DNA of 64,000 nt from Alphaproteobacteria bacterium (GCA_011087645.1 JAALLF010000001.1:143687-207686); one strand, 5' to 3'. Shown: positions 25,341 through 38,476, counted from the stretch's first letter. Notes: generated by a model not told the origin, from the letters alone. Made by a program: numbers and translations.

Positions 25341-25343
25341 CCG

Positions 25344-25808: not shown

Positions 25809-26878
25809 AGCGCCCTCCCGTTGGCGCATTTCAAGAGCATGGCGTCCCCATAGGAATAGAAACGATAGCGTTGTGCAATGGCATGGTCGTAGGCGGCGCG
25901 AATGTCATCGGTGCCGGCGAACGCGCTGACCAGCATAAACAGGGTCGAACGCGGCAGGTGAAAGTTGGTGAGCAACAGATCGACCGCGCCGAACCGGTAG
26001 CCCGGGGTGATGAATATACTGGTGTCGCCGGTGAAGGGCTGAACTGTACCGCCTTCATCGATCGCGCTTTCGAGCAAGCGCAGCGAGGTGGTGCCAACCG
26101 CCAGCACGCGCCCGCCCCTGGTATGGGTGGCATTTACCGCATCGGCCGTCGCTGGTGATATTTCGCCTATTTCAGAATGTATCTGATGATCCGCAACGTT
26201 TTCGACCGTCACCAGCAGGAACGTGCCCGCCCCCACATGGAGCGTCAGCGGCGCGGTCGCTATGCCGGCATCGGCCAGGGCGGTCATCAATTCGGGCGTA
26301 AAATGCAGACCCGCGGTGGGCGCGGCCACCGCGCCGTCACGGGCGGCGAACAGGGTCTGATAATCGGCGTGGTCCTGCGCGTCGGGCAATTCTGGGCGCT
26401 TGATATAGGGCGGCAGGGGCGCGCGCCCATGGCGGCGCAGGGCGGCGTGAAAATCGGCCCCCGTCATCGCGAAGCGCAGCAATGTTTCGCCTTTGTCGCG
26501 CTTTTCGACCACATCGGCGCAAAAATCGTCGGCAAAGACAATCTGGTCGCCGGCCGCCAGACGACGCGCCGGTTTGGCGAAGGCCCGCCACAATCCGTCG
26601 CCATCGGACTTATGCAAGGTCACACTCACTTTTCGCTCCGGCGCGGCCTTGCTGCCGGTGACATCGCGCACTCGCACCCCCGACAGCAGGGCGGGAATGA
26701 CCTTTGTATCGTTGAACACCATCAAGTCGCCGGGATGCAGCAACCCGGCCAGATCACGTATCGTGCGGTCGATCAACCCTTCCTGGGCGTCGAGCAAGCG
26801 GGCGCTTTCGCGCGGCACGGCGGGGCGCTGGGCGATTAAGTCGCTGGGCAGTTCGAAATCAAAATCGGCGGTCTTCAT
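25805..26878 (-). CDS. queA: S-adenosylmethionine:tRNA ribosyltransferase-isomerase
   Basis: 357-aa C-terminal portion of track ORF 25805..27748 starting [19 protein letters not shown] (canonical QueA N-terminus); the upstream extension is antisense to yhhQ and non-homologous. Confidence 0.85.
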
Positions 26879-26965
26879 GGCAAGGCCAGCGGCAATTGGG
26901 TCAATTGACAGGCTCGCCAGCAAACGGCACAACGCACCTTCCACAACCGGAAATAGCCTAAAATA

Positions 26966-27664
26966 ATGTCCGCCACACCGCCGCCCGCGTCGAACCAGGT
27001 CTCCAGCCGCTTCATGCTCATCGCGGTTGCTTTTGTAACTTGTCTCATCGCCTCCAACATTACCGCGGTCAAATTGATCACGGTCGCCGACTTCATACTG
27101 CCCGGCGCCATCGTCATTTTCCCGATCACTTACATCATCGGCGACGTTCTGACCGAAGTGTACGGCTATGCCAAGGCCCGGCGCGTAATCTGGCTGGGAT
27201 TTTTGGCGAACCTGTTCGCGGTGGCCACCTTCGCCCTGGTCGGTGTTCTGCCGGCAGCCGGTTTTTGGGGCGGGCAAGAGGCCTATGACACCATCCTGGG
27301 CGCCACGCCGCGCATCCTGGCGGCGTCGCTGGTGGCCTATCTGTTCGGCGAGTTCGCCAACGCGTACGTTTTGGCGCGCCTCAAAGTGGCCACCGAAGGG
27401 CGGTTTTTGTGGGTGCGCACCATCGGCTCGACCATGGTCGGGCAAAGCCTCGATTCGGCGATCTTCGTCGTCATCGCCTTCAGCGGCATCTTGCCGACCG
27501 AGGGTTTGATCTTGGTGATCGTAACGCAAGCGGTGGCCAAAACCGCCTATGAGGCCCTGGCGACACCGCTCACCTATCTCGTGGTCGACTGGCTCAAACG
27601 CGCCGAGGGTATCGACACTTTCGACCGCGACGTCAGCTTCAACCCGTTCGCCACCACCGGATAA
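26966..27664 (+). CDS. yhhQ: Queuosine-precursor transporter, YhhQ/VUT (DUF165) family
   Basis: 232 aa, 6 TM; YhhQ-family pattern (ITAVKLITV..FILPGAIVIFPITYIIGDVLTEVYGY) divergent from the queAFG operon. Confidence 0.75.
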   Translation: MSATPPPASNQVSSRFMLIAVAFVTCLIASNITAVKLITVADFILPGAIVIFPITYIIGDVLTEVYGYAKARRVIWLGFLANLFAVATFALVGVLPAAGFWGGQEAYDTILGATPRILAASLVAYLFGEFANAYVLARLKVATEGRFLWVRTIGSTMVGQSLDSAIFVVIAFSGILPTEGLILVIVTQAVAKTAYEALATPLTYLVVDWLKRAEGIDTFDRDVSFNPFATTG

Positions 27665-27672
27665 CGGCGGCG

Positions 27673-28683
27673 ATGGGGACGCAACGCCGATCCCGCTTGG
27701 CAGCCTCGCTGGCCGCCCTCGCGCTGTGTGCGCTCGCCCCATCGGCACTGGCCGGCAACTACACCGCCCAGTTCGAGAACGACAGGATCGCCGATACCGA
27801 CCGGCACTACACTACGGGCATGCGCGTAAACTGGGTTTCGGATCGCGCCACCGATTCCCCGCTATGGGCGAAAAATCTGCTCGATAAAATCTACCCGCTG
27901 GCCGATCTGCGCGCCGGACGGGTCGGCCTCGCCCTCGGCCATAATATTTTCACCCCCGAGGACACCGCGACATCGTCCTTGTTGGTCGACGACAGGCCCT
28001 ATGCCGGCTGGCTCTATGGCGGTATCTCGGCCCATGCTGAGACCAGCCGCACCATCGCCGGCCGTACCGTCGATACGCTGGATACGGTCGAGCTCGATAT
28101 CGGCGTGGTCGGGCCGTGGGCGCTGGCCGAAGAAGTGCAAAATAATTTCCACGAGCTGATCAATGTCAGCCGGTCCAATGGCTGGCACCACCAACTCGAA
28201 AACGAACCGGCTTTGCTCTTCGTGGCCGAACGCCGCTGGCGGCCAGCGCCGCTTACCCTTGGTGCGACCGAGGCCGACATTATTCCCCATATGGGGCTCA
28301 GCCTGGGCAATGTGATGACCCTGGCCAACGCCGGAGCCACGCTGCGGTTCGGCCAAGATCTCGACGTGGATTTCGGCCCGCCCCATGTGCGGCCTACCCT
28401 GTCGGGGCTGGCCGCGGTCAGCGGCGGCACCGACTTTGCCTGGTACCTGTTCGCCGGCGCGGAAGGCCGCATCGTGGCGCGCAATATATTTCTGGACGGC
28501 AACACCTTCGCCAACAGCCACAGCGTCGACAAAATACCCCTGGTCGCCGACATCCAGACGGGCGCGGCGATTGTCGTCAACGACATAAGGCTAGCCTTCA
28601 CCCACGTGTTCCGCACCCGCGAATTCGAAGGCCAACGCCGCGCCGACCGTTACGGCGCGGTCAGCCTGTCGGCGCGCTTCTGA
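27673..28683 (+). CDS. Outer-membrane beta-barrel protein, lipid A deacylase LpxR-like (DUF2219) family
   Basis: 336 aa, signal peptide, alternating amphipathic beta-strand pattern, C-terminal aromatic residue (…SLSARF). Confidence 0.5.
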   Translation: MGTQRRSRLAASLAALALCALAPSALAGNYTAQFENDRIADTDRHYTTGMRVNWVSDRATDSPLWAKNLLDKIYPLADLRAGRVGLALGHNIFTPEDTATSSLLVDDRPYAGWLYGGISAHAETSRTIAGRTVDTLDTVELDIGVVGPWALAEEVQNNFHELINVSRSNGWHHQLENEPALLFVAERRWRPAPLTLGATEADIIPHMGLSLGNVMTLANAGATLRFGQDLDVDFGPPHVRPTLSGLAAVSGGTDFAWYLFAGAEGRIVARNIFLDGNTFANSHSVDKIPLVADIQTGAAIVVNDIRLAFTHVFRTREFEGQRRADRYGAVSLSARF

Positions 28684-28756
28684 TTGACGCAGCGGATCGG
28701 CGCCGAATCCGCTATAATCACGGCGCAAATCCATCTCACAAATCGACAGGTGACCC

Positions 28757-29233
28757 ATGCGCTTCGGTGACCGTAACCCCATTCCGCTGCCGACGACCCA
28801 GCTTTCGGACCGGGTCGACTGGAGCTTCGCCGACACCCCGGCAGAGATCGCCGCGGTCGCCGCCGCCGAGCCGATGGATCAACTGCGCGCCGCCAACGAT
28901 TACGTCACCGCAACGTGCGCCTATGTGGAAGACGTCATCGACCATTGGAAATCGCCGACCGAGTTTTTCACCGCCAAAGCCGGCGATTGCGAAGACCATT
29001 GCGTGGGAAAATATGCGCTATTACGCAATATCGGCTGGGGGGCGGCCGATCTCGGCGTGTTTGCCGGCCGCGACATCGACGGGGTCGGCCACGCGCTGCT
29101 CGGCGCGCGCATCGGTGACGATATTCAAATTCTCGACAACCGCACGCCGATTATCCGCCCGACAACCGAAGCGTCCTGGTTCACGCCGTTCTTCGGCGTC
29201 AACGAGGATACGTCCTGGTTCTATCTGGGCTGA
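28757..29233 (+). CDS. Bacterial transglutaminase-like cysteine peptidase (BTLCP, LapG-like family), short form
   Basis: 158 aa; conserved Cys-His core GDCEDHCVGKYALL ... GHALL characteristic of COG3672 BTLCP proteins. Confidence 0.6.
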   Translation: MRFGDRNPIPLPTTQLSDRVDWSFADTPAEIAAVAAAEPMDQLRAANDYVTATCAYVEDVIDHWKSPTEFFTAKAGDCEDHCVGKYALLRNIGWGAADLGVFAGRDIDGVGHALLGARIGDDIQILDNRTPIIRPTTEASWFTPFFGVNEDTSWFYLG

Positions 29234-29242
29234 TTGAGCGCC

Positions 29243-30001
29243 CTACTCCGCCGCTTCCGCCGACAGCCTGCCCGCCTCGCGCCAGACATCGATGACCTCT
29301 TCGGCCTGCACCACCTGGCCGAACCAGCGGTCGATATTGACCAAGGTGGCGTTATGCATCTCTTCGGTGACGGTGCCGGTGCAGTCGTCGGCGAAGACGA
29401 TGTAATAGTCGTGGAAGAAACCGTCGCGCGCGGTCGATTCGACGCAGCCATTGGTGATCGCGCCGGTCATGATCAGCGAGCGGATGCCGTTCGAGCGTAA
29501 GACCATGTCGAGATTGGTGCCGATGAACCCGCCATAACGGTGTTTATGGATGATCGGCTCGCCCGGCCGCGGTTCGATGCCTTCGTAGAAATCACCACCC
29601 CAGCCATCTTCCATACACACCGGATATTCGATGAACCGTCCCTTCCATTGGCGCAGCGACTGTTCGAGCCAGACATCGGACATCAGGTTCATGTCGGCGT
29701 TGTAGATGGTCTGGATATAGACGATCAGACAACGCGCCTGGCGCGCCTTGTCGATCAGATTGACCAACCGCGGCACCATGGTCTGGATGCGCGTCAGATC
29801 GAAGCCCTCGGTATCGAGCATGCCGCCTTCGGCGCAGAAATCGTTCTGCACATCGACCACGATCACCGCGGTATGGGCCGGATCGGTCTTGGCTTCCAGG
29901 GTGGTCAGCGCGCGCGCCAGGGTCTTGTCGATATTGGCGCGCATGACCGGGGTGATCTTGTCCGGGTTGCGGTTCGATAGGGTGGCGTTGTCGTCGGCCA
30001 T
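29243..30001 (-). CDS. Isochorismatase-family cysteine hydrolase
   Basis: 252 aa; isochorismatase fold motifs (TAVIVVDVQNDF, catalytic Cys in MTGAITNGCVESTARD). Confidence 0.8.
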   Translation of the reverse strand: MADDNATLSNRNPDKITPVMRANIDKTLARALTTLEAKTDPAHTAVIVVDVQNDFCAEGGMLDTEGFDLTRIQTMVPRLVNLIDKARQARCLIVYIQTIYNADMNLMSDVWLEQSLRQWKGRFIEYPVCMEDGWGGDFYEGIEPRPGEPIIHKHRYGGFIGTNLDMVLRSNGIRSLIMTGAITNGCVESTARDGFFHDYYIVFADDCTGTVTEEMHNATLVNIDRWFGQVVQAEEVIDVWREAGRLSAEAAE

Positions 30002-30080
30002 AGTGTCCTCCCGTTGGGCCGCATTGGTTCGGACTCACGCTGTTGCGGCCGCGTTGCGGGCCTGAGCATAGAGCAGTTGC

Positions 30081-31214
30081 CTAGAGGACGGGAAGCGCCA
30101 CGTTGAGCGCCCGTTCGAAAAGCCAGACCGACGCCACGACCACCACCAGCGCCGACCCCACCTGGAGGCCGCCTCGTGGATAGAAGCGCCAATCGCGCGC
30201 TAGATAGGCCAGCGGCAGAAAGGCTGCGACGATGGCCAGTTGACCGACTTCGACGCCGACATTGAAGCTCAGAAGCGCTAGCACCAATGCGCCGGGGGGT
30301 AAGCCCAAATCGACCAGCACGCTGGCGAAACCCAGGCCGTGCACCAAGCCGAAGGCGAAGGCAACGAGCCAGAGCCGCCGGGTGACCACTGGATAGATGT
30401 TGTTGAGGGCGGCGATAACCACAGAGGCGGCGATTACCGATTCGACCAGGCGCGTCGGCAGATCGATGGCGCCCAGCGCCGCCAGGGTCAAGGTGATCGA
30501 GTGGGCGAGCGTGAACGCCGTGACGATCTTGAGGACTTGTCCGAAGGCCGCGCGGAAGTCGCCGACCGGCTCCCAGGTCCTGGCGCGGCGCAAGAACACT
30601 GCCGGCAGCAACAGCGTGAGCAGGAACAGCACATGGTCGAAACCGATCCAGATATGCCACACGCCATTGACGGCGAATTCGAGCCCCTGGCGCAATAGAT
30701 CCACCTGACCCAGTTCAAGGGACTGGGTTGCGGCGGCGGGCGCGAAGATAACGGTCTGGGTCTGGCCGCCCGCGGTGAGTTGCAAGAGGCCGCGATGCTG
30801 GGGGTCGAGGTCGAAGAACAGGCTATAGTCGACCTCGATAGATTGCGCCGGCGCCGCACAAGAGGCGGCAAAGCGCAGCACCGCGTAGACGCCGTCACTG
30901 TGGGTGTCGACCAATTGTTCGCCGGGCGTCAGCGCGCAGTCCGCCGCGCCCGCGCTAACTCGCAGACGCGCCAAGGCGTAGGCCGAAATCGCTGTGTGGC
31001 GCGCCTGTAATTCGGTCCACGAGATGGCGCCGTCACCGTTGCCGTCCAACCCGATGGCGAATTCCAGATCGCGTAGCGCGATGTCCCACTGCCCCTCGAT
31101 GCGCTCACCGCTGACCTCCAGGCTGAGATAGGAGTCACTGGGCTTGTGAGCCGACGCCGAGACCGGCATGAGGGCCAGGATCACCAACAGACAAAGGGTT
31201 AGCCACCGAACCAT
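30081..31214 (-). CDS. HupE/UreJ-family (Ni/Co-type) membrane transporter with ~190-aa N-terminal periplasmic extension
   Basis: 377 aa; signal peptide plus soluble domain, then 6 TM with HupE signatures (GVWHIWIGFDHVLF and GLVHGLGFA); start overlaps TPR gene stop (TGATG). Confidence 0.65.
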   Translation of the reverse strand: MVRWLTLCLLVILALMPVSASAHKPSDSYLSLEVSGERIEGQWDIALRDLEFAIGLDGNGDGAISWTELQARHTAISAYALARLRVSAGAADCALTPGEQLVDTHSDGVYAVLRFAASCAAPAQSIEVDYSLFFDLDPQHRGLLQLTAGGQTQTVIFAPAAATQSLELGQVDLLRQGLEFAVNGVWHIWIGFDHVLFLLTLLLPAVFLRRARTWEPVGDFRAAFGQVLKIVTAFTLAHSITLTLAALGAIDLPTRLVESVIAASVVIAALNNIYPVVTRRLWLVAFAFGLVHGLGFASVLVDLGLPPGALVLALLSFNVGVEVGQLAIVAAFLPLAYLARDWRFYPRGGLQVGSALVVVVASVWLFERALNVALPVL

Positions 31215-32479
31215 CAGCTTGCCTCCCCTTCAAGGCGCGCGGTCAGCCGGTCGATCTGCCGATCCCGCAGGCCGGTTTTGCGCAACCAATCGAGCGCCGG
31301 CTGGGCCCGGTCCGGCACCCCGGCGGCCAGGGCCGCCGCCAACACGAGGCGCACATCAGCTGGTTCGCGCTGCGCCTGCCAATTGGCCTCCGCCAGCGCG
31401 AGGGCCGCGGCAGGCCGCTCGAGAATCTCCAGGGTAAAGCGCGCCTCTTCGCGACGGTGGATCACGCTACCCCGCGCCCGGCTGGCCGCGAAGCGCGCTT
31501 CCAGCAGCGCTCGATGATCCTGCGCGGCGGGATCTCCAAGGCGCGCCTCGGCCAGCGTCAAACGCAACAACAGCCCGTCGATCCGCGTGTCGTCGGCAAG
31601 AAAGTCACGGGCCTCCTGGGCGCGGCCGCTATCGAGCAGCAAATCGGCATAGGCGCCGCGCAAATAGGCGTCGCGCCGGCCGAGATCCAGCCCGTCGCGG
31701 AAATGGCGTTCCGCAGCGATGACATCGCCGCGGCGCTGGGCAATCTCGCCCAAATTAGTGAAGGCCCAGAGGCGTAGGCCACGGTCGGCGTCGGTCCAAT
31801 TGGCCAGTCCGCGTTTGAGCAACCCATAACCGGTGTCGGACCGGCCGGTCAGGCTTTCGATGCGGGCCACGCAGGTGACCACAATGAGGGGGTGCACCCC
31901 GCGCGGCAACGCGCGGCAACTGCGGCGCGCGTCGGCGTAGCGCCCCTGCACCTGCAGCACGAACGCCTGGGTCAACAGAGCTTGCGCGTGTTTGGGCTTG
32001 GCGGCGAGAGTTTGAGCAAGGTCGTCCAGCGCGCCGTCGAAATCATGGCGATTTTGCTTCAAGACCGCGCGAAGAACGCGGACCTCGACCGGCGGTGCGG
32101 CCAGGTTGACCCAAGGCTTCAAGGCGGCCTCGGCATAACCGTAATAGCGCGGATCGGCCTCGGCGCGGCCCAAGCCGATATAGCGCTTGGCCAGGGTGCG
32201 GGCTAATTCGAGGTCGTTGGGAGTTTCGTTAAGTTTGGCGCGCAGATGGCGCAACTCGCGCGTCGCCGCGTCGCCGGCTTTTGGCAAACGTTCCAATATC
32301 TGATCGCCCGACGTGGGGCGAAAAGGTTCGGCGGCCGCCGCCGTCGGGTTGAGAACCGCGGCAGCGACAAGGGCGGAGATGAAAATACGGCGCACCGGTT
32401 TGATAATCGGTCGCCGCAGCGTGAAAGCACCGCGCCGAAACGGCGTTGGCGGAAAAGTATCATTTTTACAGTTTGTCAT
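31214..32479 (-). CDS. Secreted tetratricopeptide-repeat (TPR)-like protein, function unknown
   Basis: 421 aa, N-terminal signal-like hydrophobic segment, Ala/Leu/Arg-rich helical repeats typical of TPR/Sel1-like solenoids. Confidence 0.55.
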   Translation of the reverse strand: MTNCKNDTFPPTPFRRGAFTLRRPIIKPVRRIFISALVAAAVLNPTAAAAEPFRPTSGDQILERLPKAGDAATRELRHLRAKLNETPNDLELARTLAKRYIGLGRAEADPRYYGYAEAALKPWVNLAAPPVEVRVLRAVLKQNRHDFDGALDDLAQTLAAKPKHAQALLTQAFVLQVQGRYADARRSCRALPRGVHPLIVVTCVARIESLTGRSDTGYGLLKRGLANWTDADRGLRLWAFTNLGEIAQRRGDVIAAERHFRDGLDLGRRDAYLRGAYADLLLDSGRAQEARDFLADDTRIDGLLLRLTLAEARLGDPAAQDHRALLEARFAASRARGSVIHRREEARFTLEILERPAAALALAEANWQAQREPADVRLVLAAALAAGVPDRAQPALDWLRKTGLRDRQIDRLTARLEGEAS

Positions 32480-32569
32480 CGCGCTTCCCCAAAATTGACA
32501 TCGGCTCGGTGGGCAAAGGGGGGCGAGCTCGCTGGAACCCGCCCCGCATACTGTGGTTCAAGAACTGGC

Positions 32570-34045
32570 TTACTTTTTCTTGCCGTTGCCGTTGGCGTTC
32601 CCGTTGCCATTGCCCGCATCGGGACCAGTGCCGGCCTCTTCACCGTGATGACCGTGGTTGCGGCCGTTCAGCGGTGTGGCGGCGTAGGGGAAGACATCGT
32701 TGAAGGTGATGTCGTTCTCGGTCACGCCGTCGAGATCCATGGTGGCGAAACCGAGGGCGTTCAGCGCGATATCGTCGACATCGTCACCGAAGCGCCGGCC
32801 ATTTGGCCAACCACCGGGGACCGCGCCGCCGAAATCGAGCGCGCTGCCCAAATTAGTGGTGGGCAACAGGTCGCCACCGAACACGCTCAAGCGGTTAAAG
32901 CCAGCTTCACCGGCAAGCCGGGCCGGGCCGGTCGACAGGTCGACCTTGATCACATCTGGGATGTAGATGTCCCGGACCAACAGAACCGTCGGATCGAGCT
33001 GGCTGGGAAGCGGTGTCAGGCCCAGTAACGCGGCGATTTCCGGGTTCTCGGCATAGGTGGCGAACAACGCGGCATCCTGCGTCGCATCGGTGGCGTTGTA
33101 ATTGTCTTTATCGACAATCGCGACCAATGCCTCGTTGAATAACGGGTTGCCCTGGCGGCCGACTTGAACCCACTCGGAAACACCGTTGACCGTCTGTTGA
33201 CGGCTGGTCGTGGCATGCACACCGGCAAATCCGGCATTGTTGAGTTCGCTCAGCGGAATGTTCAAAACGATAGTGTGAACATTGAAACCGCCTTGGCTAT
33301 CGAACGGTTTGGTTGGGGTACCGGTGTCACCACCGAACGTGAAATCCAGATCGAAGATTGACTGAATATCAGCATAGAACCCGTCATCGCGCTGTCCGGC
33401 AAAGACCCGGTAACCGCTGGCGTTCTCGGCGATCCCAGCACTGGTGTAGATGTCGAGATCGGCTTCGTCATCGACGCCAGGCTTGGCCGTACGGTCGCCA
33501 TCATTGTCCTGGTTGTAGAACGGCGTCACCAGACCCTGGTTGTTCGGCGGCACCATGGTGTCGCCATTGTCGAACAGCACGGTCGATCCGCCGGCATCGA
33601 CGCGGGTGACTTGGTAGGTCTGCTGTAAGTTTTGGTTGGGACCGAAAGTCGCGCCGACTTCGCCGAGATAGGCTTGAAGGATCGTTTGATCGTTCTGGTA
33701 GGTCGTGTCGAACTCGAACTGGTAGCTGATGGTTTTGGTACCCGTGCCGATATCGTTGTCGAGCGAGACGTGGATCTCGTAGAGAACCCGGTCGTCGAAA
33801 CGATAATTGTTCGGCCCGATGCCCGGCTCCTCAAAGGGGGAAACGGCGAGCGCCGTGGTCAGGTACTGGGTGCTGCCGTCTTGGCTCTGACTGCGGAACG
33901 CATAGACATCGGTGGTGTTCGCCGGGTCATCGAAAGTGATGAGCGGCGCATCCATATGGCTCGACGCCAATGACGGCGCGACCGGGAGCATTCCGGCAAG
34001 AACGGCGCCGACCGCGACGGTCGAAACAAGTTTTCGGTAGTTCAT
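32570..34045 (-). CDS. Secreted DUF4331-family protein with C-terminal His/Asn-Gly-rich tail
   Basis: Start MNYRKLV (GGAGA SD 8 nt upstream) within track ORF 32570..34165; signal peptide followed by SSHMDAP motif resembling the DUF4331 N-terminal signature; tail NGRNHGHHGEEAGTGPDAGNGNGNANGNGKKK. Confidence 0.6.
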   Translation of the reverse strand: MNYRKLVSTVAVGAVLAGMLPVAPSLASSHMDAPLITFDDPANTTDVYAFRSQSQDGSTQYLTTALAVSPFEEPGIGPNNYRFDDRVLYEIHVSLDNDIGTGTKTISYQFEFDTTYQNDQTILQAYLGEVGATFGPNQNLQQTYQVTRVDAGGSTVLFDNGDTMVPPNNQGLVTPFYNQDNDGDRTAKPGVDDEADLDIYTSAGIAENASGYRVFAGQRDDGFYADIQSIFDLDFTFGGDTGTPTKPFDSQGGFNVHTIVLNIPLSELNNAGFAGVHATTSRQQTVNGVSEWVQVGRQGNPLFNEALVAIVDKDNYNATDATQDAALFATYAENPEIAALLGLTPLPSQLDPTVLLVRDIYIPDVIKVDLSTGPARLAGEAGFNRLSVFGGDLLPTTNLGSALDFGGAVPGGWPNGRRFGDDVDDIALNALGFATMDLDGVTENDITFNDVFPYAATPLNGRNHGHHGEEAGTGPDAGNGNGNANGNGKKK

Positions 34046-34358
34046 AACATGGTCTCCATTCATAGGCTTGAGGGTAGGAAGGTTCGTTTGGCTTGATCGA
34101 ATTGCGGTGATCCAGCTCGCGGCATGGGCCGAAAAATGGATCGTGAAATTCGACTTCCCTGGCAATTACGTTGCCGATGAATGGATGGATGCAGGCTCAG
34201 ATAACGTTACTGTGAGGATCGGCTGATCTACGACAGATCGAGTGATAATCGCCTCGAAAACGTGAAAAGTCTCCAGTCGCGCCGTAGCGCAATGGGGTGT
34301 CTGAAAATGGGAAATTTCGGGAGACGCCCGGGAAACGGGCAAAAATTGGGCGAAAAAC

Positions 34359-34904
34359 TTAGCGCAGTTCGCCGCGAATATAGGCCACGCCGCCTTGCGC
34401 GCTATAGATCACCGGATGACGGGTGTCGGCTTCCATGACGTGAAAATCGCCCGGCTTAAGGTGGATATCGCCGATGTCGAACGATCCCTCGAGCACGATA
34501 CATTCTTCCGTCGCGCGGTGCTTGTGCGACGGCAATTGCGCCCCCGGCGCGACCCGCAGCAGATAGGATTCGCTGCGCGCCATTTCATCGAAATAGAGGG
34601 TTTTTTTCTCAATGCCCTCCGCCAGCTGTTCCCACGCCCCCTCGCCAGCGTGAATGGTAACCGAGCTGGGCCGCTCGGTCGCCAAGGCATCCAGGGCGCC
34701 ATCTATATTGGCCCACAGACCGGCCGACGGCTCGACCGCCGCCGCGCCCTGCCCCAATCCGTTCAGGCGACGTTCCCAATCCGCGACCCGCGCTCGCAAT
34801 TTCGGATCGCGCGCCAAGGCTTCAGCAAACCGCCGACGCGCGTCGCCATCGAGAGTACCCAACACGTACTCAGCGGCCAGGCCGTCATCGTGTTCGTGCG
34901 TCAT
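34359..34904 (-). CDS. Anti-sigma factor, RskA-like N-terminal domain + ChrR-type cupin (paralog 2)
   Basis: 181 aa; N-terminus MTHEHDDGLAAEYVLGTLDGD (class II anti-sigma domain, no Zn Cys) and C-terminal cupin; ~65% identical to 35070..35627. Confidence 0.7.
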   Translation of the reverse strand: MTHEHDDGLAAEYVLGTLDGDARRRFAEALARDPKLRARVADWERRLNGLGQGAAAVEPSAGLWANIDGALDALATERPSSVTIHAGEGAWEQLAEGIEKKTLYFDEMARSESYLLRVAPGAQLPSHKHRATEECIVLEGSFDIGDIHLKPGDFHVMEADTRHPVIYSAQGGVAYIRGELR

Positions 34905-35042
34905 CGGACTCGAAAATCCCTAACTCGCTGCTATTTGATCAGCCCCGGGCATGACATAGTTCTCAAACAGGCCCCTGGCAAATCGGCCTATTCTCGCGAA
35001 AATCGTTCCAACAATACGCCAGAACAATTAACTTTGTCGTTG

Positions 35043-35068
35043 CGACTAAGGGCTGACCGAACAGCCCG
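35043..35068 (-). terminator. Stem-loop immediately downstream of anti-sigma paralog 1 (possible weak terminator/attenuator)
   Basis: GGCTGACCG-N7-CGGTCAGCC hairpin 2 nt after stop; no strong T-tract. Confidence 0.3.
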
Positions 35069-35069
35069 G

Positions 35070-35627
35070 TCAGCCAGTCGCTTCGCGCAACTCACCACGA
35101 ACATAAATGACTGCGCCATGCTCGCTGAAGGCATCCGGATGGGTCGTGCCGGCGTCGATGGCGTGAAAATCGCCTGCCGCCAGATGAATGTCGCCGATAT
35201 CGAAGGTGCCTTCCATGACCAGGCATTCCTCGGCGGAGCTGTGATCGTGGGACGGCAATAAGGTGCCCGGCGCGATCCGCAGCAAATAAGACTCGCTGCG
35301 CGCCGCGGTGTCGAAATAGAGCAGTTTCTTTTCGACGCCCTCGGCAAGTGTTTCCCACTCGCCCTCATCGCCGCGTAAGGTTACGGAGTTGGGCAGGCTT
35401 GCCGCCGCCCCATCCAAGGCCGCATTAATCTTGTCCCATAGCCCGGCCGACGGCTCGACTTCGCTCGACCCTGGCTCCAACCCTTGTAACCGATGCTGCC
35501 ATTCTTCGACCAGGGCCTGCAGTTCGGGATCGCGCGCCAGGGCCTCGGCAAACCGCCGGCGTCCGTCGCCCTCAAGGGTGCCGAGAACATATTCCGCTGC
35601 CAAGCCGTCATTGTGTTCATGGGTCAT
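35070..35627 (-). CDS. Anti-sigma factor, RskA-like N-terminal domain + ChrR-type cupin (paralog 1), cognate to upstream ECF sigma
   Basis: Start MTHEHNDGL; start ATG overlaps the sigma gene stop (ATGA at 35624-35627); same architecture as paralog 2. Confidence 0.75.
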   Translation of the reverse strand: MTHEHNDGLAAEYVLGTLEGDGRRRFAEALARDPELQALVEEWQHRLQGLEPGSSEVEPSAGLWDKINAALDGAAASLPNSVTLRGDEGEWETLAEGVEKKLLYFDTAARSESYLLRIAPGTLLPSHDHSSAEECLVMEGTFDIGDIHLAAGDFHAIDAGTTHPDAFSEHGAVIYVRGELREATG

Positions 35628-36190
35628 TGGTCGAGGCATTCCTTGAGCTGGAGCAGGCCACGACGGACCCAACTTTTGACCGTGCCCAACGGCGTGTCGA
35701 GCGAACTGGCCAACTCCTGGTGGGTATGGCCGTAGTAATACGCCAAAACAATAGCTTTCTGCTGCTTGGATTGCAGTTTTTCCAGGCAGCCACGAAGACC
35801 GTCATCTATCCGGTCGAACGGCGCCTCTGTTGCAATATCAGCCCCCAAGCCGCCTTCGATGAGATCATCCAGGCTCGCCTGCGAACGCGGCTCGCGGTTC
35901 TGGCTGCGCAACTGGTCGATCGCCCGATGTCGCACGATCGTCCCCATCCACGACAACGGCCGGCCACGGTCGGGGTGATATTGGCTGGCCTTCTTCCAGA
36001 TGGTTATGTAGGCCTCTTGGAGTACTTCTTCCGCTGGCTCGCGCTGACGCAGAATGCGCATCGAGATCGCCAGTAGCCGTGACGCGGACAGATTGTATAG
36101 CCGCGCAAACGCGTCCCGATCGCCTCGCCCAGCGGCTAGCAACAGTTCCTCGAGCGGATCGAGTTCAGCTATGTGGGTGGCACTCGTCAC
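35624..36190 (-). CDS. ECF-family RNA polymerase sigma factor (sigma-70 regions 2 and 4)
   Basis: Region 2 (LYNLSASRLLAISMRILRQREPAEEVLQEAYITIWKKA) and region 4 HTH (AIVLAYYYGHTHQELASSLDTPLGTVKSWVRRGL); probable GTG start at 36190 (GGGGG upstream); track ORF extends to 36316. Confidence 0.85.
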   Translation of the reverse strand: MTSATHIAELDPLEELLLAAGRGDRDAFARLYNLSASRLLAISMRILRQREPAEEVLQEAYITIWKKASQYHPDRGRPLSWMGTIVRHRAIDQLRSQNREPRSQASLDDLIEGGLGADIATEAPFDRIDDGLRGCLEKLQSKQQKAIVLAYYYGHTHQELASSLDTPLGTVKSWVRRGLLQLKECLDQ

Positions 36191-36347
36191 GCCAATACCC
36201 CCGGATACAGGCTCACGGGGGCGACTATACAACACAAATAGCTTGGAAGCCCATGGCAACTCACGATTGCATACAGGACTACCTGATGGCGTTGTCGGCC
36301 AACGGGGTCGGGTCACGATGATGACCTTGCCATGAAATATTCCTTTC

Positions 36348-36767
36348 TCAGTCGCGCTGGTCTCCCGATTGTCGCTTCAAATAGGCGATGATATCGGCCC
36401 GGTCCGTCGCCTTTGGAACTCGGATATTCATCCGTTGGCCAGGGATAAAGCCTTGCGGGTTTTCCAACCAGCGATCGATTGTGTCGTCGGTCCAAATCAC
36501 CTCGGACTTCTGCAAAGCCGGTGAATAATCAAAGCCTTCCACCCCGCCGGCGCGACGGCCGTGGAGGCCTTGGTGTTTGGGGCCGACGCGATTAGCATCA
36601 AGAGAATGACAGACGCTGCAGCGGCTTTCGTAAAGTAGTTCGCCGCGCCCCGAATCCGGCAACGCCGCGGTTGTATCCGTGGACGCCCCAAAGGCGTTAC
36701 TTGATAGAAACCAGGAGAGCCCGAGGATGCTGGCGATGGCCATGGCGTGTTTCAATATGGTTTTCAC
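36348..36767 (-). CDS. Monoheme class I cytochrome c
   Basis: Probable GTG start (GAGGTG SD) with signal peptide MAIASILGLSWFLSSNAFG; heme motif CSVCH and distal Met region; track ORF 36348..36932. Confidence 0.75.
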   Translation of the reverse strand: MKTILKHAMAIASILGLSWFLSSNAFGASTDTTAALPDSGRGELLYESRCSVCHSLDANRVGPKHQGLHGRRAGGVEGFDYSPALQKSEVIWTDDTIDRWLENPQGFIPGQRMNIRVPKATDRADIIAYLKRQSGDQRD

Positions 36768-36865
36768 GTCGCACCTCTGAAAAGGGATCCCGAGGCCTTG
36801 AGGGGGGAACTCACGGCCCCGGGATAGTTTGGAGTTCGGGGAGGGGAACAGGTTAAATAACTGCG

Positions 36866-37477
36866 CTAGACGCCGAAGGTCAGCGCCGCTTTGGGAACTG
36901 GCTGGCCAAGGGCGTTGGCCAGAACAGTCCAATGCATGGTCTCGTCGGCGGCTAAACGGCCGGCAATCTGCGCCAGATCCGCATCGCCAAAGGCCGGAAT
37001 GACGCCGATATAGGCATTGGCGGCGCCGCGTTCGAGGCGGGCGGCAAGCTTCAGAACATCGGTCTGATTCTTCAGCGTATTGGCCTTCAGATCGCTGGCA
37101 TAGTCAGCCAGCTTCTTGGCAGCAACCGCTGTACCGCCGAGTTTCTTGACTGTATCGGCCAGCGCATCGCGATGCGCCTTGTGGTGACCTTGGAACAGCA
37201 CCGCCACGTCGAGCACCGGTTTCTGTAAAAGCCCGCTTTCGGCGCCAAGCCGGTAGGCGTTGATGGCCTCATGCTCGAGACCGAGGGCCACATTGAGAAT
37301 TGCGGTGTCCTGCGCCGGATCGGACTTGCGCCCACCGCTATGACTGGCGGCCAGGCTATCGCTGCCCGCGATCAGCGCGATCGCGGTCGCTGACAGAGTG
37401 ACCTTACCGGCGCTGCCAAGAAACCGTCGGCGCGACTCACCCTGATACGCTCGCTGGCTGGGATTTAAGTGGGTCAT
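36866..37477 (-). CDS. Tat-exported ferritin-like (DUF4439-type) protein
   Basis: Start MTHLNPSQ (GGAGA SD); twin-arginine motif SRRRFLGSAG; four-helix ferritin-like E/H-rich region (LGLEHEAINAY ... ADETMHWTVL). Confidence 0.65.
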   Translation of the reverse strand: MTHLNPSQRAYQGESRRRFLGSAGKVTLSATAIALIAGSDSLAASHSGGRKSDPAQDTAILNVALGLEHEAINAYRLGAESGLLQKPVLDVAVLFQGHHKAHRDALADTVKKLGGTAVAAKKLADYASDLKANTLKNQTDVLKLAARLERGAANAYIGVIPAFGDADLAQIAGRLAADETMHWTVLANALGQPVPKAALTFGV

Positions 37478-37705
37478 TTTAACGTCTCCATTTGCATCTG
37501 TTGATCGGGCATGGTCGCCCGAAAGCGGCCTTACATGGGCTATTACGCTGGCCGAGCGGGAATAGATGCAGGGCGCACAAAAAAATTGGGAAGTACCGTG
37601 CGTCGCCGAAAATCGATTGTGATGCCACACAAAAGGCGGATTCTCATGTAAGGTGCGATACAAATAGGCGACAAATCACCCACATGTCCGCCGAGGAAAC
37701 GACCC

Positions 37706-38476
37706 ATGACACGCAACCGATTGGCCTTGTGCCTTGCCGCCTTTGTCGCGGCGGTCTCGCTACCTGTCAGCGCCCAGGCGCAACTCGACCTGCTCAAACG
37801 CGGCAAAGACGCGCTGCAATCGATCCCCGGCACCGGGGGAAGCGGCGGATCGACATCACCCGCCGCAGCCCTTACGGACACCGAAATCGGCAGCGGTTTG
37901 CGCGAAGCGCTGACCGTGGGGGTGCGTACAGTAGTGTCCCAGGTGGGCGCGACCGACGGCTACAACGCCGATCCGCGTATCCATATACCCCTGCCAAAGA
38001 GCCTGGAGACGGTGCAAAAAACCCTGTCACGCATCGGCATGTCAGACTTGGTCGACGATCTAGAACTGCGCCTCAACCGCGCCGCTGAGAAGGCCGCGCC
38101 GGAAGCGCGCGAAGTGTTTGGCCAGGCCATTCGGGACATGACCTTCGACGACGTGCAGATGATCTATAAAGGTCCCGACGACGCCGCGACACGTTTTCTC
38201 GAGCGCACCATGAGCAGTCCGCTGGTCCAGCGCATGCGTCCGATTGTCGACGATAGCCTGTCGGACGTCGGCGCGGTGCGGGCCTATGACAATGCCATCG
38301 GCCAGTACAAGGCAATCCCCTTCGTGCCCGATGCCAAGGCCGACCTTACCGAGCATGTTCTCGAACGCGCCCTGAAGGGGCTGTTCCTCTATCTCGCCGA
38401 AGAAGAGGCCGCGATCCGCCAGAACCCGGTCAAACGCACGACAACACTGCTGCAAAAGGTGTTCGGCGCCAGTTAA
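37706..38476 (+). CDS. Periplasmic DUF4197-family protein
   Basis: 256 aa, signal peptide, TEIGSGLREAL-type motif typical of DUF4197. Confidence 0.5.
   Translation: MTRNRLALCLAAFVAAVSLPVSAQAQLDLLKRGKDALQSIPGTGGSGGSTSPAAALTDTEIGSGLREALTVGVRTVVSQVGATDGYNADPRIHIPLPKSLETVQKTLSRIGMSDLVDDLELRLNRAAEKAAPEAREVFGQAIRDMTFDDVQMIYKGPDDAATRFLERTMSSPLVQRMRPIVDDSLSDVGAVRAYDNAIGQYKAIPFVPDAKADLTEHVLERALKGLFLYLAEEEAAIRQNPVKRTTTLLQKVFGAS

What the first reader, a model, noticed from the sequence alone, without database searches (positions are those of the whole stretch)
29243..37477. ECF sigma-led same-strand cluster with secreted DUF4331, TPR and extended HupE/UreJ proteins
Ten minus-strand genes run head-to-tail. 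They are cytochrome c, a Tat-exported ferritin-like protein, an ECF sigma, two anti-sigma paralogs, a DUF4331 protein, a TPR protein, a HupE/UreJ fusion and a cysteine hydrolase. Sigma and anti-sigma 1 are translationally coupled (ATGA), as are the TPR and HupE genes (TGATG). Envelope-exposed proteins of unknown function (DUF4331, TPR), a Ni/Co-type permease homolog and two periplasmic redox or metal proteins all lie downstream of a dedicated sigma/anti-sigma pair. This looks like an uncharacterised, signal-induced metal-acquisition or envelope-stress module.
Basis: inference. Interest (0 to 1): 0.7.

Follow-up and report, generated by a model that had tools for sequence, protein, structure and literature searches.

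The report
Sigma-factor-controlled metal uptake gene cluster
This is a widely conserved bacterial gene module in which a dedicated sigma factor, held by a soluble metal-site-bearing anti-sigma factor, appears to switch on a copper/nickel-type "anglerase" permease and two uncharacterised envelope proteins. That gives the recently described anglerases their first regulatory and genomic context, although the metal involved is still unknown.

Summary
The cluster is real, with corrections. There are nine minus-strand genes, not ten. The Tat ferritin-like gene precedes the cytochrome c gene, and both lie upstream of the sigma gene.

The core is conserved across phyla. In 56 DUF4331 loci with full flanks, a TPR gene is adjacent in 48 and the extended HupE/UreJ-2 gene follows in 33. 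A SigK-like ECF sigma gene is nearby in 27 and a cupin anti-sigma gene in 22.

One ECF-type promoter, CTGCATC(C/T)-N17-CGTAAT, occurs exactly twice in the 64-kb window: upstream of the ferritin-led sigma operon and upstream of DUF4331. Related motifs sit upstream of sigma, DUF4331 or TPR, and ferritin genes in other genomes. Co-regulation is therefore well supported in silico.

The anti-sigma factors join an RskA-type sigma-binding domain to a ChrR-type cupin with four invariant metal ligands. They have no zinc finger and no membrane span.

DUF4331 has no solved relative. It carries an invariant mature N-terminus Ser-Ser-His and a His-rich tail.

The isochorismatase gene is not part of the conserved module.

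Best reading: an ECF-controlled transition-metal (Cu/Ni-type) acquisition module. This is a new variant of a known kind.

The parts
37543..37570 (-). ECF-type promoter 1, TGCATCT-N16-CGTAAT. It lies about 66 nt upstream of the ferritin-like ATG and presumably drives ferritin, cytochrome c, sigma and anti-sigma 1 (autoregulation).
   Evidence: One of only two exact matches to TGCATC-N17-CGTAA in the 64-kb window, both strands. The same motif is upstream of the ferritin gene in L005 and in the Marinicaulis-type loci.
36866..37477 (-). Tat-exported ferritin-like (Ferritin_2/DUF4439) di-metal four-helix protein.
   Evidence: Pfam PF13668 E 1.5e-25. SRRRFLG twin-arginine motif read from the translation. 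No solved relative. Forms a sigma-cupin-ferritin-cytochrome c operon in L090 and L042/L045.
36348..36767 (-). Periplasmic monohaem c-type cytochrome (CSVCH), always paired with the ferritin-like gene.
   Evidence: Pfam PF00034. The gene call of 139 aa on the source contig sets the start at 36767. Co-occurs with the ferritin gene in 7 of 56 loci, and in L089 and L090.
35624..36190 (-). SigK-like ECF sigma factor, 188 aa, with sigma-2 and sigma-4 domains only. It has two Cys aligned with SigK C133 and C183.
   Evidence: Pfam r2 and r4_2. Best NCBIfam match is the SigK subfamily at 154.8 bits, below the 226-bit cut-off. Best PDB match is M. tuberculosis SigK 4NQW, E 5e-24, with both Cys aligned.
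35070..35627 (-). Soluble anti-sigma factor 1: an RskA-type sigma-binding N-domain plus a ChrR-type cupin. It is translationally coupled to sigma through an ATGA overlap.
   Evidence: Cupin_7 E 2.5e-16. ChrR structures 3O14 and 2Q1Z match the cupin domain. The N-terminus matches RskA proteins. H127, H129, E133 and H163 are invariant in 32 homologues. The overlap was read from the sequence.
35001..35080 (-). Two strong RNA hairpins immediately after the anti-sigma 1 stop codon. This is the probable end of the first operon.
   Evidence: Fold energy -35.2 kcal/mol, z = -3.96; none of 200 shuffles folded as well.
34359..34904 (-). Soluble anti-sigma factor 2, a paralog of anti-sigma 1 with 66% identity and the same two domains. 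No ECF motif precedes it.
   Evidence: Two copies also occur in the close relative L005. Other lineages have one copy.
34166..34193 (-). ECF-type promoter 2, TGCATCC-N16-CGTAAT, about 120 nt upstream of the DUF4331 ATG.
   Evidence: The second of the two exact matches in the window. Conserved as a phylogenetic footprint in L005 and L006 while the sequence upstream of it diverges. The same motif lies upstream of DUF4331 in L007, L009, L011, L013, L015, L029 and others.
34076..34160 (-). Conserved structured 5' leader of the DUF4331 mRNA. A stem GUCGAAU / AUUCGAU starts close to the predicted +1.
   Evidence: The stem is kept through AU<->GC changes in L013 and L009, but only seven sequences were compared and the window fold has z = -1.18. 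No Rfam family matches.
32570..34045 (-). Secreted DUF4331 protein of 491 aa. It has a Sec signal peptide, a mature N-terminus Ser-Ser-His-Met-Asp-Ala-Pro and a His-rich C-terminal tail (NGRNHGHH).
32520..32545 (-). An 11-bp G+C-rich hairpin just after the DUF4331 stop codon. It may be an attenuator or stabiliser between DUF4331 and TPR.
   Evidence: Centroid structure. The region as a whole is not more stable than shuffles (z = +0.82), so this is weak evidence.
31214..32479 (-). Exported TPR protein of 421 aa, translationally coupled to the permease gene through a TGATG overlap.
   Evidence: TPR Pfam hits. 43% identical to the TPR partner of HupE/UreJ-2 in a Gallionellaceae locus that has no DUF4331. 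A TPR gene is adjacent to DUF4331 in 48 of 56 loci.
30081..31214 (-). Anglerase-type permease. It has a signal peptide, an Ang-1-like beta-sandwich domain starting at His23 (nt about 30690-31148) and a HupE_UreJ_2 membrane domain (nt about 30081-30689).
29243..30001 (-). Isochorismatase-family hydrolase. It is adjacent on the same strand, 79 nt downstream, and may be co-transcribed here. It is not part of the conserved module.
   Evidence: PF00857 E 8.9e-39. RutB and BiuH equivalog scores are far below their cut-offs. Found near DUF4331 only in L005 and, weakly and on the opposite strand, in L007.

Best explanation
This is an ECF sigma-controlled transition-metal acquisition module.

**Regulation.** A SigK-like ECF sigma factor is held in the cytoplasm by one or two soluble anti-sigma factors. 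Each anti-sigma factor joins an RskA-type sigma-binding domain to a ChrR-type cupin that keeps a His-His-Glu-His metal site. When the signal arrives, sigma is released. The signal is unknown. The likeliest candidates are loss or exchange of the cupin metal (cytoplasmic metal status), or oxidation.

**Transcription.** Free sigma transcribes from two promoters of the form TGCATC(C/T)-N16-CGTAAT.
- P1 drives ferritin-like, cytochrome c, sigma and anti-sigma 1. This gives positive autoregulation plus two periplasmic redox or metal proteins.
- P2 drives DUF4331, TPR and Ang-1-HupE/UreJ-2.

**Proposed transport path.** DUF4331 is exported. In some genomes it may be passed outward by a co-regulated type II secretion system. 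It binds a metal through its N-terminal Ser-Ser-His (ATCUN-type) site and/or its His-rich tail. The TPR protein scaffolds the hand-over. [quoted passage not shown]

**What is shown and what is inferred.**
- Shown here: gene identities, conserved synteny, the shared promoter motif, the fold of the Ang-1-like domain, and the invariant residues.
- Inferred: direction of transport, identity of the metal (Cu or Ni favoured; Co or Zn possible), the roles of DUF4331, TPR and ferritin/cytochrome c, and the nature of the signal.
For: **Synteny.** In 56 DUF4331 loci with at least 5 kb on both flanks, TPR is adjacent in 48, HupE_UreJ_2 lies within 2 kb in 33, an ECF sigma within 3.5 kb in 27, and a cupin anti-sigma in 22. 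The gene order differs between lineages (DUF4331-TPR-HupE versus TPR-DUF4331-HupE). That argues for selection on the association, not inheritance of a fixed block.

**Promoter in the window.** There are exactly two matches in the window, at the two expected places.

**Promoter across the loci.** The motif was scored with at most one mismatch, within 350 nt upstream of a gene.
- Sigma: 25 of 60.
- DUF4331: 21 of 81.
- Upstream-type TPR: 12 of 24.
- Ferritin: 5 of 12.
- Operon-internal genes: 0-1 each.
- Random windows: 4.7%.

Gammaproteobacterial loci use the variant TGAATCC-N16-CGTA upstream of both sigma and the TPR-DUF4331 operon.

**Metal link.**
- His1 after the signal peptide is invariant.
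- Published data for RbAng-1a give Kd 74 nM for Cu2+ and 220 nM for Ni2+ (PMC12537917).
- The HupE-type H-x3-G-x-D-H motif and further His motifs in the membrane domain were read from the sequence.
- The DUF4331 mature N-terminus Ser-Ser-His and the HxHH tail are conserved.

**Neighbouring genes in other genomes.**
- DUF4198, a nickel-binding protein with Kd 18 nM, is adjacent in 6 of 56 loci and in L087 and L089.
- cobN/cobW/cobU/cobO lie next to the module in L003.
- hypABFCDE lie next to sigma-cupin-ferritin-cytochrome c in L090.

**Anti-sigma.** The four ChrR-type metal ligands are invariant in 32 sequences.
Against: - There is no expression, binding or transport data for any gene of this module. 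The promoter is a motif, not a mapped 5' end.
- The window's Ang-1-like domain is only 18% identical to RbAng-1a. It is about equally similar in fold to two zinc-binding proteins, so metal specificity cannot be transferred.
- Only about half of the DUF4331 loci have a sigma gene nearby, and about 40% lack HupE_UreJ_2 within 2 kb. TPR-HupE/UreJ-2 also exists without DUF4331 or sigma.
- ATCUN sites bind Cu(II) and Ni(II) very tightly and are poor donors, which sits awkwardly with a relay role.
- ChrR and SigK, the closest studied relatives of the regulators, respond to oxidative or redox cues, not to metal supply.
- The ferritin-like/cytochrome c pair has no obvious role in uptake.
Confidence: 0.55

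Rival explanations
1. This is an oxidative or photo-oxidative stress regulon. The cupin anti-sigma and the Cys pair of the SigK-like sigma sense a reactive oxygen species or a redox change, as ChrR and SigK do. The Tat ferritin-like di-metal protein and its cytochrome c would act as a periplasmic peroxide or oxidant detoxifier. DUF4331, TPR and the permease would be auxiliary, for example to re-metallate damaged enzymes.
For: - The closest solved relatives of the regulators are RpoE-ChrR and SigK.
- Both SigK redox cysteines are aligned. PMC7826278 and PMC7509140 describe them as a redox layer.
- Ferritin-like and cytochrome c genes are the genes most tightly attached to sigma and cupin: same operon here and in L090, L042 and L045.
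- The weak NCBIfam match of the anti-sigma is to the cadmium/peroxide/UV-responsive ChrR.
Against: - The anti-sigma lacks the zinc-finger (HxxxCxxC) domain of ChrR-type factors.
- The most widespread promoter target is the DUF4331-TPR-permease operon, whose only characterised component is a metal-capturing permease.
- No classical oxidative-stress genes (catalase, peroxiredoxin, methionine sulfoxide reductase) recur in the loci.
Confidence: 0.2
2. This is a defence against metal excess, not an uptake system. Sigma is released when a toxic metal loads the cupin. DUF4331, with its ATCUN and His-rich sites, and the ferritin-like protein sequester or oxidise the metal in the periplasm. This would be comparable in logic to CnrH-CnrYX or CorE.
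For: - Tight-binding N-terminal X-X-His and His-rich tails suit sequestration.
- Known metal-responsive ECF systems such as CnrH and CorE respond to excess (my own knowledge, not tested here).
- A periplasmic di-metal oxidase with a cytochrome c partner could change a metal's redox state (inference).
Against: - No efflux pump (RND, CDF or P-type ATPase) recurs in the module.
- The conserved membrane component belongs to a family of importers or diffusion facilitators, and it is fused to a metal-capturing domain.
- The neighbouring genes in other genomes are consumers of Ni or Co (hyp and cob genes).
Confidence: 0.12
3. The genes are neighbours without common control. DUF4331 would be an extracellular protein, for example an adhesin or enzyme secreted by a type II system, unrelated to the permease and the sigma factor.
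For: - Type II secretion genes lie within 10 kb in 12 of 80 loci, and in L088 and L089.
- The DUF4331 fold gives only Ig-like or carbohydrate-binding-type matches at low Z.
- Half of the loci have no sigma gene nearby.
Against: - The promoter motif is shared at sigma, DUF4331 or TPR, and ferritin genes in several phyla, far above background.
- TPR is adjacent in 86% of loci and the permease in 59%.
- The gspE genes themselves carry the same motif in four loci, which suggests co-regulation, not independence.
Confidence: 0.05

Closest known systems
Anglerase: Ang-1 domain fused to a HupE/UreJ-2 permease (RbAng-1a, PDB 9GCE; Franco Cairo et al., Nat Commun 2025, PMC12537917)
   Different: Identity to RbAng-1a is only 18%, and sequence search finds no hit. 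The window protein carries a canonical EF-hand-like loop, DGNGDGAISWTE. The paper does not describe the TPR partner, DUF4331, or any sigma/anti-sigma control. DUF4331 appears only with a count of 2 in its neighbourhood table.
SigK-RskA of Mycobacterium tuberculosis (ECF18/ECF19 clade; PDB 4NQW)
   Same: SigK is the sigma factor's best solved relative. Both regulatory cysteines are aligned. The anti-sigma N-domain is RskA-like. The -35 element ends in ATCC.
   Different: The anti-sigma has no membrane span and no RskA_C domain. A ChrR-type cupin takes their place. In PMC7509140, 98% of two-cysteine SigK proteins pair with RskA, so this pairing is the exception. The regulon is also different: DUF4331, TPR and permease in place of mpt70/mpt83. 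The SigK subfamily score is below its cut-off.
RpoE-ChrR of Rhodobacter sphaeroides and Caulobacter (ECF11; PDB 2Q1Z, 2Z2S)
   Same: Both have a soluble two-domain anti-sigma with a C-terminal cupin. All four of the cupin's metal ligands (His, His, Glu, His) are conserved. The sigma and anti-sigma genes are co-transcribed.
   Different: The N-terminal zinc-binding HxxxCxxC domain is absent. The TIGR02451 score is 42.5 against a cut-off of 124.5. The sigma is closer to SigK than to RpoE. The target genes are unrelated.
Metal-responsive ECF systems: CnrH-CnrYX (Ni/Co) and CorE (Cu) (recalled from the literature, not tested here)
   Same: An ECF sigma factor couples a transition-metal cue to the expression of envelope metal-handling genes.
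   Different: CnrX senses metal in the periplasm through a membrane complex, and CorE senses metal itself. Both control resistance. Here the candidate sensor is a cytoplasmic cupin anti-sigma, and the output looks like uptake.
ZrgA (Vibrio cholerae) and PA4063 (Pseudomonas aeruginosa), periplasmic zinc-binding proteins
   Different: They are free-standing proteins, not fused to a permease. They bind zinc through His-rich loops, not through an N-terminal histidine.

Membership tests
ECF (group IV) sigma factor | Only sigma-2 and sigma-4 domains, with a length of about 180-200 aa. | tested here: met
   Pfam Sigma70_r2 (32-99) and r4_2 (132-182) in a 188-aa protein. TIGR02937 scores 76.1 bits against a cut-off of 42.9.
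ECF (group IV) sigma factor | Co-transcribed cognate anti-sigma factor and an autoregulated ECF-type promoter. | tested here: met
   ATGA overlap with the anti-sigma gene. The motif TGCATCT-N16-CGTAAT lies upstream of the operon, and similar motifs lie upstream of sigma genes in 25 of 60 loci. This is a motif only; no 5' end has been mapped.
SigK subfamily (ECF18/19) | Score above the curated SigK model cut-off. | tested here: not met
   PRK09646 scores 154.8 bits against a cut-off of 226.
SigK subfamily (ECF18/19) | Two conserved cysteines equivalent to C133 and C183. | tested here: met
   Both are aligned in the phmmer alignment to 4NQW.
SigK subfamily (ECF18/19) | Membrane anti-sigma RskA with an RskA_C domain. 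| tested here: not met
   Both anti-sigma proteins show only Cupin_7 and Cupin_2. The translations show no evident hydrophobic membrane-spanning segment; no predictor was run. RskA_C partners do occur in acidobacterial loci of the same module.
ChrR-family anti-sigma factor (TIGR02451) | N-terminal zinc-binding anti-sigma domain (H-x3-C-x2-C). | tested here: not met
   There is no Cys in the first 130 residues of either paralog. The family alignment shows no such motif.
ChrR-family anti-sigma factor (TIGR02451) | C-terminal cupin with His-His-Glu-His metal ligands. | tested here: met
   Aligned to 2Q1Z and 3O14. H127, H129, E133 and H163 are invariant in 32 sequences.
ChrR-family anti-sigma factor (TIGR02451) | Score above the curated cut-off. 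| tested here: not met
   42.5 and 43.9 bits against a cut-off of 124.5.
Anglerase (Ang-1-HupE/UreJ-2) | Signal peptide followed directly by an invariant histidine as the first mature residue. | tested here: met
   The sequence ...SASA|HKPSDSY is present. A22, H23, K24, S26, D27, S28 and Y29 are invariant in 47 homologues. The cleavage site is inferred from the AxA rule, not measured.
Anglerase (Ang-1-HupE/UreJ-2) | Ang-1 beta-sandwich fold. | tested here: met
Anglerase (Ang-1-HupE/UreJ-2) | C-terminal PF13795 membrane domain. | tested here: met
   E 7.2e-49, residues 182-341.
Anglerase (Ang-1-HupE/UreJ-2) | Binding of Cu2+ or Ni2+ at His1. | not testable with these tools
   This needs purified protein. 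Published values exist only for RbAng-1a, which is 18% identical.
DUF4331 (PF14224) | Full-length match to the family profile. | tested here: met
   234.9 bits, profile positions 1-421 of 421.
ATCUN (amino-terminal Cu/Ni) motif, for DUF4331 | Free N-terminus with His at position 3 and no Pro at position 2. | tested here: inconclusive
   Ser-Ser-His follows a conserved AxA site, and the Pfam profile starts at that Ser. The true cleavage site and metal binding have not been measured. Cleavage one or two residues later would give a different site.
Ferritin-like superfamily (Ferritin_2) | Profile match, with Glu/His di-metal ligands on four helices. | tested here: met
   PF13668 at 90.3 bits over the full profile. 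EHE, HH..H, E and ExxH segments were read from the translation. Metal content is unknown.
RutB / biuret hydrolase (isochorismatase family) | Score above the equivalog cut-offs. | tested here: not met
   137 against 378 (RutB), and 103.8 against 370 (BiuH). Only the general PF00857 domain is met.

The most novel reading that the evidence does not exclude
DUF4331 is a new class of secreted protein that scavenges or chaperones metal ions. It captures Cu(II) or Ni(II) on its invariant N-terminal Ser-Ser-His site. In some bacteria it is exported by a co-regulated type II secretion system. With the help of the TPR protein it hands the ion to the anglerase permease. The cupin anti-sigma factor is a direct cytoplasmic sensor of sufficiency for the same metal. 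That would make this the first ECF pathway in which a soluble anti-sigma factor reads the metal quota and switches on uptake.
Probability: 0.2. Interest if true: 0.8.

Novelty: new variant of a known kind. Interest (0 to 1): 0.55.

Why it matters
Anglerase permeases were described only in 2025, from isolated domains. Nothing is known about when they are made, which partners they work with, or which metal they carry in cells.

This analysis ties one large anglerase clade to three things:
- a TPR partner that is nearly always present;
- DUF4331, a very large family with no mention in the searchable literature. The homologue search scored 4,957 significant hits among its 8,000 pre-selected candidates;
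- a dedicated SigK-like sigma factor, whose anti-sigma factor has swapped the RskA membrane sensor for a metal-site cupin.

The analysis yields a concrete promoter motif, defined operons and specific residues. Those residues are His23 of the permease, Ser-Ser-His of DUF4331, and His127, His129, Glu133 and His163 of the anti-sigma factor. All of these can be tested directly.

If the cupin senses metal, this would be a new way of coupling an ECF sigma factor to metal supply. The module is common in soil, marine and freshwater Proteobacteria, Acidobacteriota and Verrucomicrobiota. It may therefore matter for trace-metal acquisition in the environment.

Tried and rejected
- **Literature.** Searches for DUF4331, PF14224, PF13795, HupE_UreJ_2 and IPR025566 returned nothing. 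A search for Ferritin_2 and DUF4439 gave only eukaryotic desiccation-protein and ferritin papers. The ECF reclassification paper holds no searchable supplement, and its text does not mention this context.

- **Structure.**
  - The conserved loops of DUF4331 are the low-confidence parts of the model.
  - The ferritin-like and TPR proteins have no solved relatives.
  - The afdb50 fold library was unavailable.

- **RNA.** There is no Rfam match in 29000-38000, even at E up to 1. A cobalamin, NiCo or other known riboswitch is therefore excluded.

- **Consensus scan.** The simple scan for sigma-70 promoters and terminators gave no more sites than shuffles.

- **Isochorismatase.** Rejected as a module member because it is not conserved.

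- **Third Cupin_7 gene (23651-24157).** Rejected as a third anti-sigma factor. It has no sigma-binding domain and is only 29% identical within the cupin.

- **Type II secretion.** Genes were looked for in the window and not found among the 25 Pfam families listed of 94.

- **Clustering.** A first single-linkage clustering of stop-to-stop ORFs merged unrelated families and was discarded. It was redone with greedy non-overlapping ORFs.

- **Promoter at other genes.** No ECF motif was found directly upstream of the sigma GTG (36190) or of anti-sigma 2 (34904). The Gallionellaceae TPR-permease pair, which lacks sigma and DUF4331, shows no convincing motif either.

Full report
**1. Observation**

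The region 29243-37477 holds nine head-to-tail genes on the minus strand, not ten. In order of transcription they are:

| Gene | Coordinates |
|---|---|
| Tat-signal ferritin-like protein (Ferritin_2/DUF4439) | 36866-37477 |
| Monohaem cytochrome c | 36348-36767 |
| ECF sigma factor | 35624-36190 |
| Cupin_7 protein 1 | 35070-35627 |
| Cupin_7 protein 2 | 34359-34904 |
| DUF4331 protein | 32570-34045 |
| TPR protein | 31214-32479 |
| HupE_UreJ_2 protein with a long N-terminal extension | 30081-31214 |
| Isochorismatase-family hydrolase | 29243-30001 |

The public gene calls on the source contig, an alphaproteobacterial metagenome-assembled scaffold, give the same nine genes. The ATGA and TGATG overlaps are present as described. 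Those two genes lie upstream of sigma, not downstream.

**2. Conservation**

DUF4331 is a very large family: the homologue search scored 4,957 significant hits among its 8,000 pre-selected candidates. A scan of one genome per species returned 294 loci, of which 80 were fetched with 10-kb flanks. Searching their ORFs with the window proteins and a few extra queries gave the following counts for the 56 loci that have at least 5 kb on both sides.

| Neighbour of DUF4331 | Loci (of 56) |
|---|---|
| TPR gene adjacent | 48 |
| HupE_UreJ_2 within 2 kb | 33 |
| ECF sigma within 3.5 kb | 27 |
| Cupin anti-sigma | 22 |
| RskA_C anti-sigma | 4 |
| Ferritin-like plus cytochrome c | 7 |
| DUF4198 adjacent | 6 |
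| Type II secretin (GspD) within 10 kb | 9 |
| Isochorismatase | 1 |

The order of the core genes differs by lineage. Most Alphaproteobacteria have DUF4331-TPR-permease, as here. Gammaproteobacteria, Acidobacteriota, Verrucomicrobiota and Gemmatimonadota have a second, distantly related TPR gene upstream, giving TPR-DUF4331-permease.

In Gallionellaceae the window-type TPR protein (43% identical) is translationally coupled to the permease, with no DUF4331 or sigma nearby. TPR-permease is therefore the tightest pair.

In Marinicaulis/Parvularculaceae-type loci, the cassette sigma-cupin-ferritin-cytochrome c lies next to DUF4331-TPR. In another metagenomic locus it stands alone beside the hydrogenase nickel-insertion genes hypABFCDE.

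The isochorismatase gene is lineage-specific and is not part of the module.

**3. Promoter**

Reading the intergenic regions showed the same sequence upstream of DUF4331 and upstream of the ferritin-like gene:
- CCTGCATCCATCCATTCATCGGCAACGTAAT upstream of DUF4331;
- CCTGCATCTATTCCCGCTCGGCCAGCGTAAT upstream of the ferritin-like gene.

TGCATC-N17-CGTAA has exactly two matches in the 64-kb window, on both strands, and they are these two. In 1.49 Mb of related loci a strict form has 16 matches. Nearly all of them lie directly upstream of DUF4331, ferritin or sigma genes.

Allowing one mismatch, the motif occurs within 350 nt upstream as follows.

| Upstream of | Loci with motif |
|---|---|
| Sigma genes | 25 of 60 |
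| DUF4331 genes | 21 of 81 |
| Upstream-type TPR genes | 12 of 24 |
| Ferritin genes | 5 of 12 |
| Operon-internal genes (cytochrome c, anti-sigma, TPR-A, permease) | 0-1 each |
| Random windows | 4.7% |

Gammaproteobacterial loci use TGAATCC-N16-CGTA upstream of both the sigma gene and the TPR-DUF4331 operon. Some Paracoccaceae-type loci use CGTT as the -10 element. The alignment with two close relatives shows a footprint that begins exactly at the -35 element.

This is the pattern expected of an autoregulated ECF sigma factor and its direct targets.

**4. Operon structure in the window (inferred)**

- P1 (37570-37543) drives ferritin-like, cytochrome c, sigma and anti-sigma 1.
- Two strong hairpins follow the anti-sigma 1 stop codon (z = -3.96).
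- Anti-sigma 2 has no ECF motif. It may have its own weak housekeeping-type promoter, which I read by eye and did not test.
- P2 (34193-34166) drives DUF4331, followed by a G+C-rich hairpin, then the coupled TPR and permease genes, and perhaps the isochorismatase gene.
- Two anti-sigma copies occur only in this lineage (window, L005 and one further genome).

**5. Regulators**

The sigma factor's best solved relative is M. tuberculosis SigK (E 5e-24), ahead of R. sphaeroides RpoE. Both SigK cysteines, C133 and C183, are aligned. The curated SigK model is not reached (154.8 bits against 226).

The anti-sigma factors are about 185 aa long, and their translations show no evident membrane-spanning segment. 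Residues 1-60 resemble the sigma-binding domain of RskA proteins. Residues 80-180 are a ChrR-type cupin.

The ChrR zinc-finger motif is absent. The four cupin metal ligands (His127, His129, Glu133, His163) are invariant in 32 homologues from several classes.

According to PMC7509140, 98% of two-cysteine SigK proteins pair with RskA. This pairing with a soluble cupin anti-sigma factor is therefore an unusual variant. In acidobacterial loci of the same module a normal sigma-RskA_C pair precedes TPR-DUF4331-permease.

**6. The extended HupE protein**

The extension is conserved at about 60% identity across classes. The sequence AxA|HKPSDSY at the signal-peptide boundary is invariant in 47 sequences.

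An AF2 model of residues 1-185 (pLDDT 90.7) matches three solved structures:

The paper behind 9GCE (PMC12537917) names such fusions anglerases. It shows that His1 forms a mono-histidine brace, and it measures Kd 74 nM for Cu2+ and 220 nM for Ni2+. It proposes that the domain swings between an open state that captures ions and a closed state over the permease mouth.

The paper's text does not mention DUF4331, TPR proteins or sigma factors. DUF4331 appears once, with a count of 2, in a neighbourhood table. The same paper shows that DUF4198 is a nickel-binding protein with Kd 18 nM. DUF4198 is the gene that replaces or accompanies the permease next to DUF4331 in several loci here.

The window protein is only 18% identical to RbAng-1a, so its metal preference cannot be assumed.

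**7. DUF4331**

The protein has a Sec signal peptide. The Pfam profile begins exactly at the first residue after the predicted cleavage site. Ser28, Ser29, Met31, Asp32, Ala33 and Pro34 are invariant, and His30 is at least 90% conserved.

A free Ser-Ser-His N-terminus would be an amino-terminal Cu(II)/Ni(II)-binding (ATCUN) motif. These are the same two metals that Ang-1 binds. This is inference from established coordination chemistry, not a measurement.

The C-terminus carries NGRNHGHH followed by a Gly/Asn-rich tail.

Type II secretion genes lie nearby in 12 of 80 loci, and in L088 and L089. In four loci gspE is preceded by the same promoter motif. DUF4331 may therefore be secreted beyond the outer membrane in some bacteria. 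No secretion genes were seen among the Pfam families listed for the window.

**8. Mechanism proposed**

The module is best read as an ECF-controlled metal acquisition system (confidence 0.55).

- **Sensing.** The sensor is a cytoplasmic cupin anti-sigma factor.
- **Regulation.** Sigma release activates its own operon, which includes a Tat-exported di-metal protein and its cytochrome c partner, and the DUF4331-TPR-anglerase operon.
- **Transport.** DUF4331 and the Ang-1 domain capture the ion, TPR scaffolds, and HupE/UreJ-2 imports.

| Metal | Evidence |
|---|---|
| Cu, Ni | Ang-1 data and the ATCUN-type motif |
| Ni | DUF4198 and hyp neighbours |
| Co | One cobalamin-gene neighbourhood |
| Zn | Fold relatives ZrgA and PA4063 |

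The role of the ferritin-like/cytochrome c pair is the weakest point. It may adjust the redox state of the metal or deal with oxidants.

The main rival (0.2) is an oxidative-stress regulon, by analogy with ChrR and SigK. A metal-excess defence (0.12) lacks any efflux component. Independence of the genes (0.05) is contradicted by the promoter data.

**9. Novelty**

Each regulatory principle is known: ECF sigma with anti-sigma, a cupin anti-sigma, metal-responsive ECF systems, and the anglerase permease. The following could not be found in the searchable literature:
- the combination of a SigK-type sigma with an RskA-ASD/ChrR-cupin hybrid anti-sigma;
- the conserved DUF4331-TPR-anglerase operon;
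- the shared promoter.

I rate it a new variant of a known kind. It is moderately interesting because it makes the biology of anglerases and of DUF4331 directly testable.

**10. Limits**

- Everything about function is inference from sequence, models and neighbourhoods.
- ORFs in related loci were called crudely, stop to stop, so the counts are approximate and probably underestimate co-occurrence.
- The loci are the 80 best DUF4331 matches, so more distant family members were not sampled.
- The promoter motif was seeded from the window itself.

Noticed in passing
window 34076-34160 (minus strand); also L005:4364-4495, L006:9551-9682, L013:9876-10005, L009:9796-9930: The DUF4331 mRNA leader begins with a conserved sequence, GTAAGTCGRAT, at about +1. 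This forms the 5' arm of a long hairpin. The stem is kept through AU<->GC changes in other families. No Rfam family matches. It could be a stabilising 5' stem-loop or a regulatory element.
   Followed up: partly
L010 about 15776, L012 about 17930, L019 about 18290, L021 about 18500 (upstream of gspE); L089:1-5859; L088:12852-14038: Type II secretion genes (GspD/E/F/G and the prepilin peptidase) sit beside the DUF4331 module in several unrelated lineages. In four loci gspE is preceded by the same ECF promoter motif. This hints that DUF4331, or another regulon member, is a type II secretion substrate.
   Followed up: partly
window 35001-35080 (minus strand): Two very stable hairpins (z = -3.96) lie between the two anti-sigma paralogs. 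They suggest that anti-sigma 2 is expressed separately from the autoregulated operon, which could set an induction threshold.
   Followed up: partly
window 31011-31046 (minus strand; residues 57-68 of the permease): A canonical EF-hand-like loop, DGNGDGAISWTE, sits inside the Ang-1-like domain. G55, D57, I64, W66 and E68 are conserved in 47 homologues. It is not described for RbAng-1a in the paper text I read. It may be a Ca2+ site or a second metal site.
   Followed up: no
window 23651-24157 (minus strand): This is a third Cupin_7 gene of 168 aa, next to queG and a YCII gene. It has no sigma-binding domain and no sigma gene beside it, and it is 29% identical to the anti-sigma cupins. It is a stand-alone ChrR-type cupin of unknown role.
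   Followed up: partly
window about 24180-27660 (both strands): A compact queuosine cluster lies just downstream of the module: a Vut_1 (YhhQ-type precursor transporter) gene, queA, queF and queG. It looks ordinary.
   Followed up: no
window 37706-38476 (plus strand): A DUF4197 gene is transcribed divergently from the ferritin-led operon and shares its 228-nt intergenic region with ECF promoter 1. I did not test whether it is co-regulated or conserved next to the module.
   Followed up: no
L024, L027, L035, L042, L045, L055, L066-L068 (Marinicaulis/Parvularculaceae-type loci): These loci carry two or three ECF sigma genes around DUF4331-TPR: sigma-sigma-anti-sigma downstream, plus sigma-cupin-ferritin-cytochrome c on the other strand. 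No HupE/UreJ-2 gene is nearby. A second promoter type, GCATCT-N16-CCGTAT, precedes one of the extra sigma genes.
   Followed up: partly
window 27673-29233 (plus strand): LpxR (lipid A 3'-O-deacylase) and a BTLCP-type transglutaminase-like cysteine protease gene converge on the end of the cluster. No link to the module was seen.
   Followed up: no
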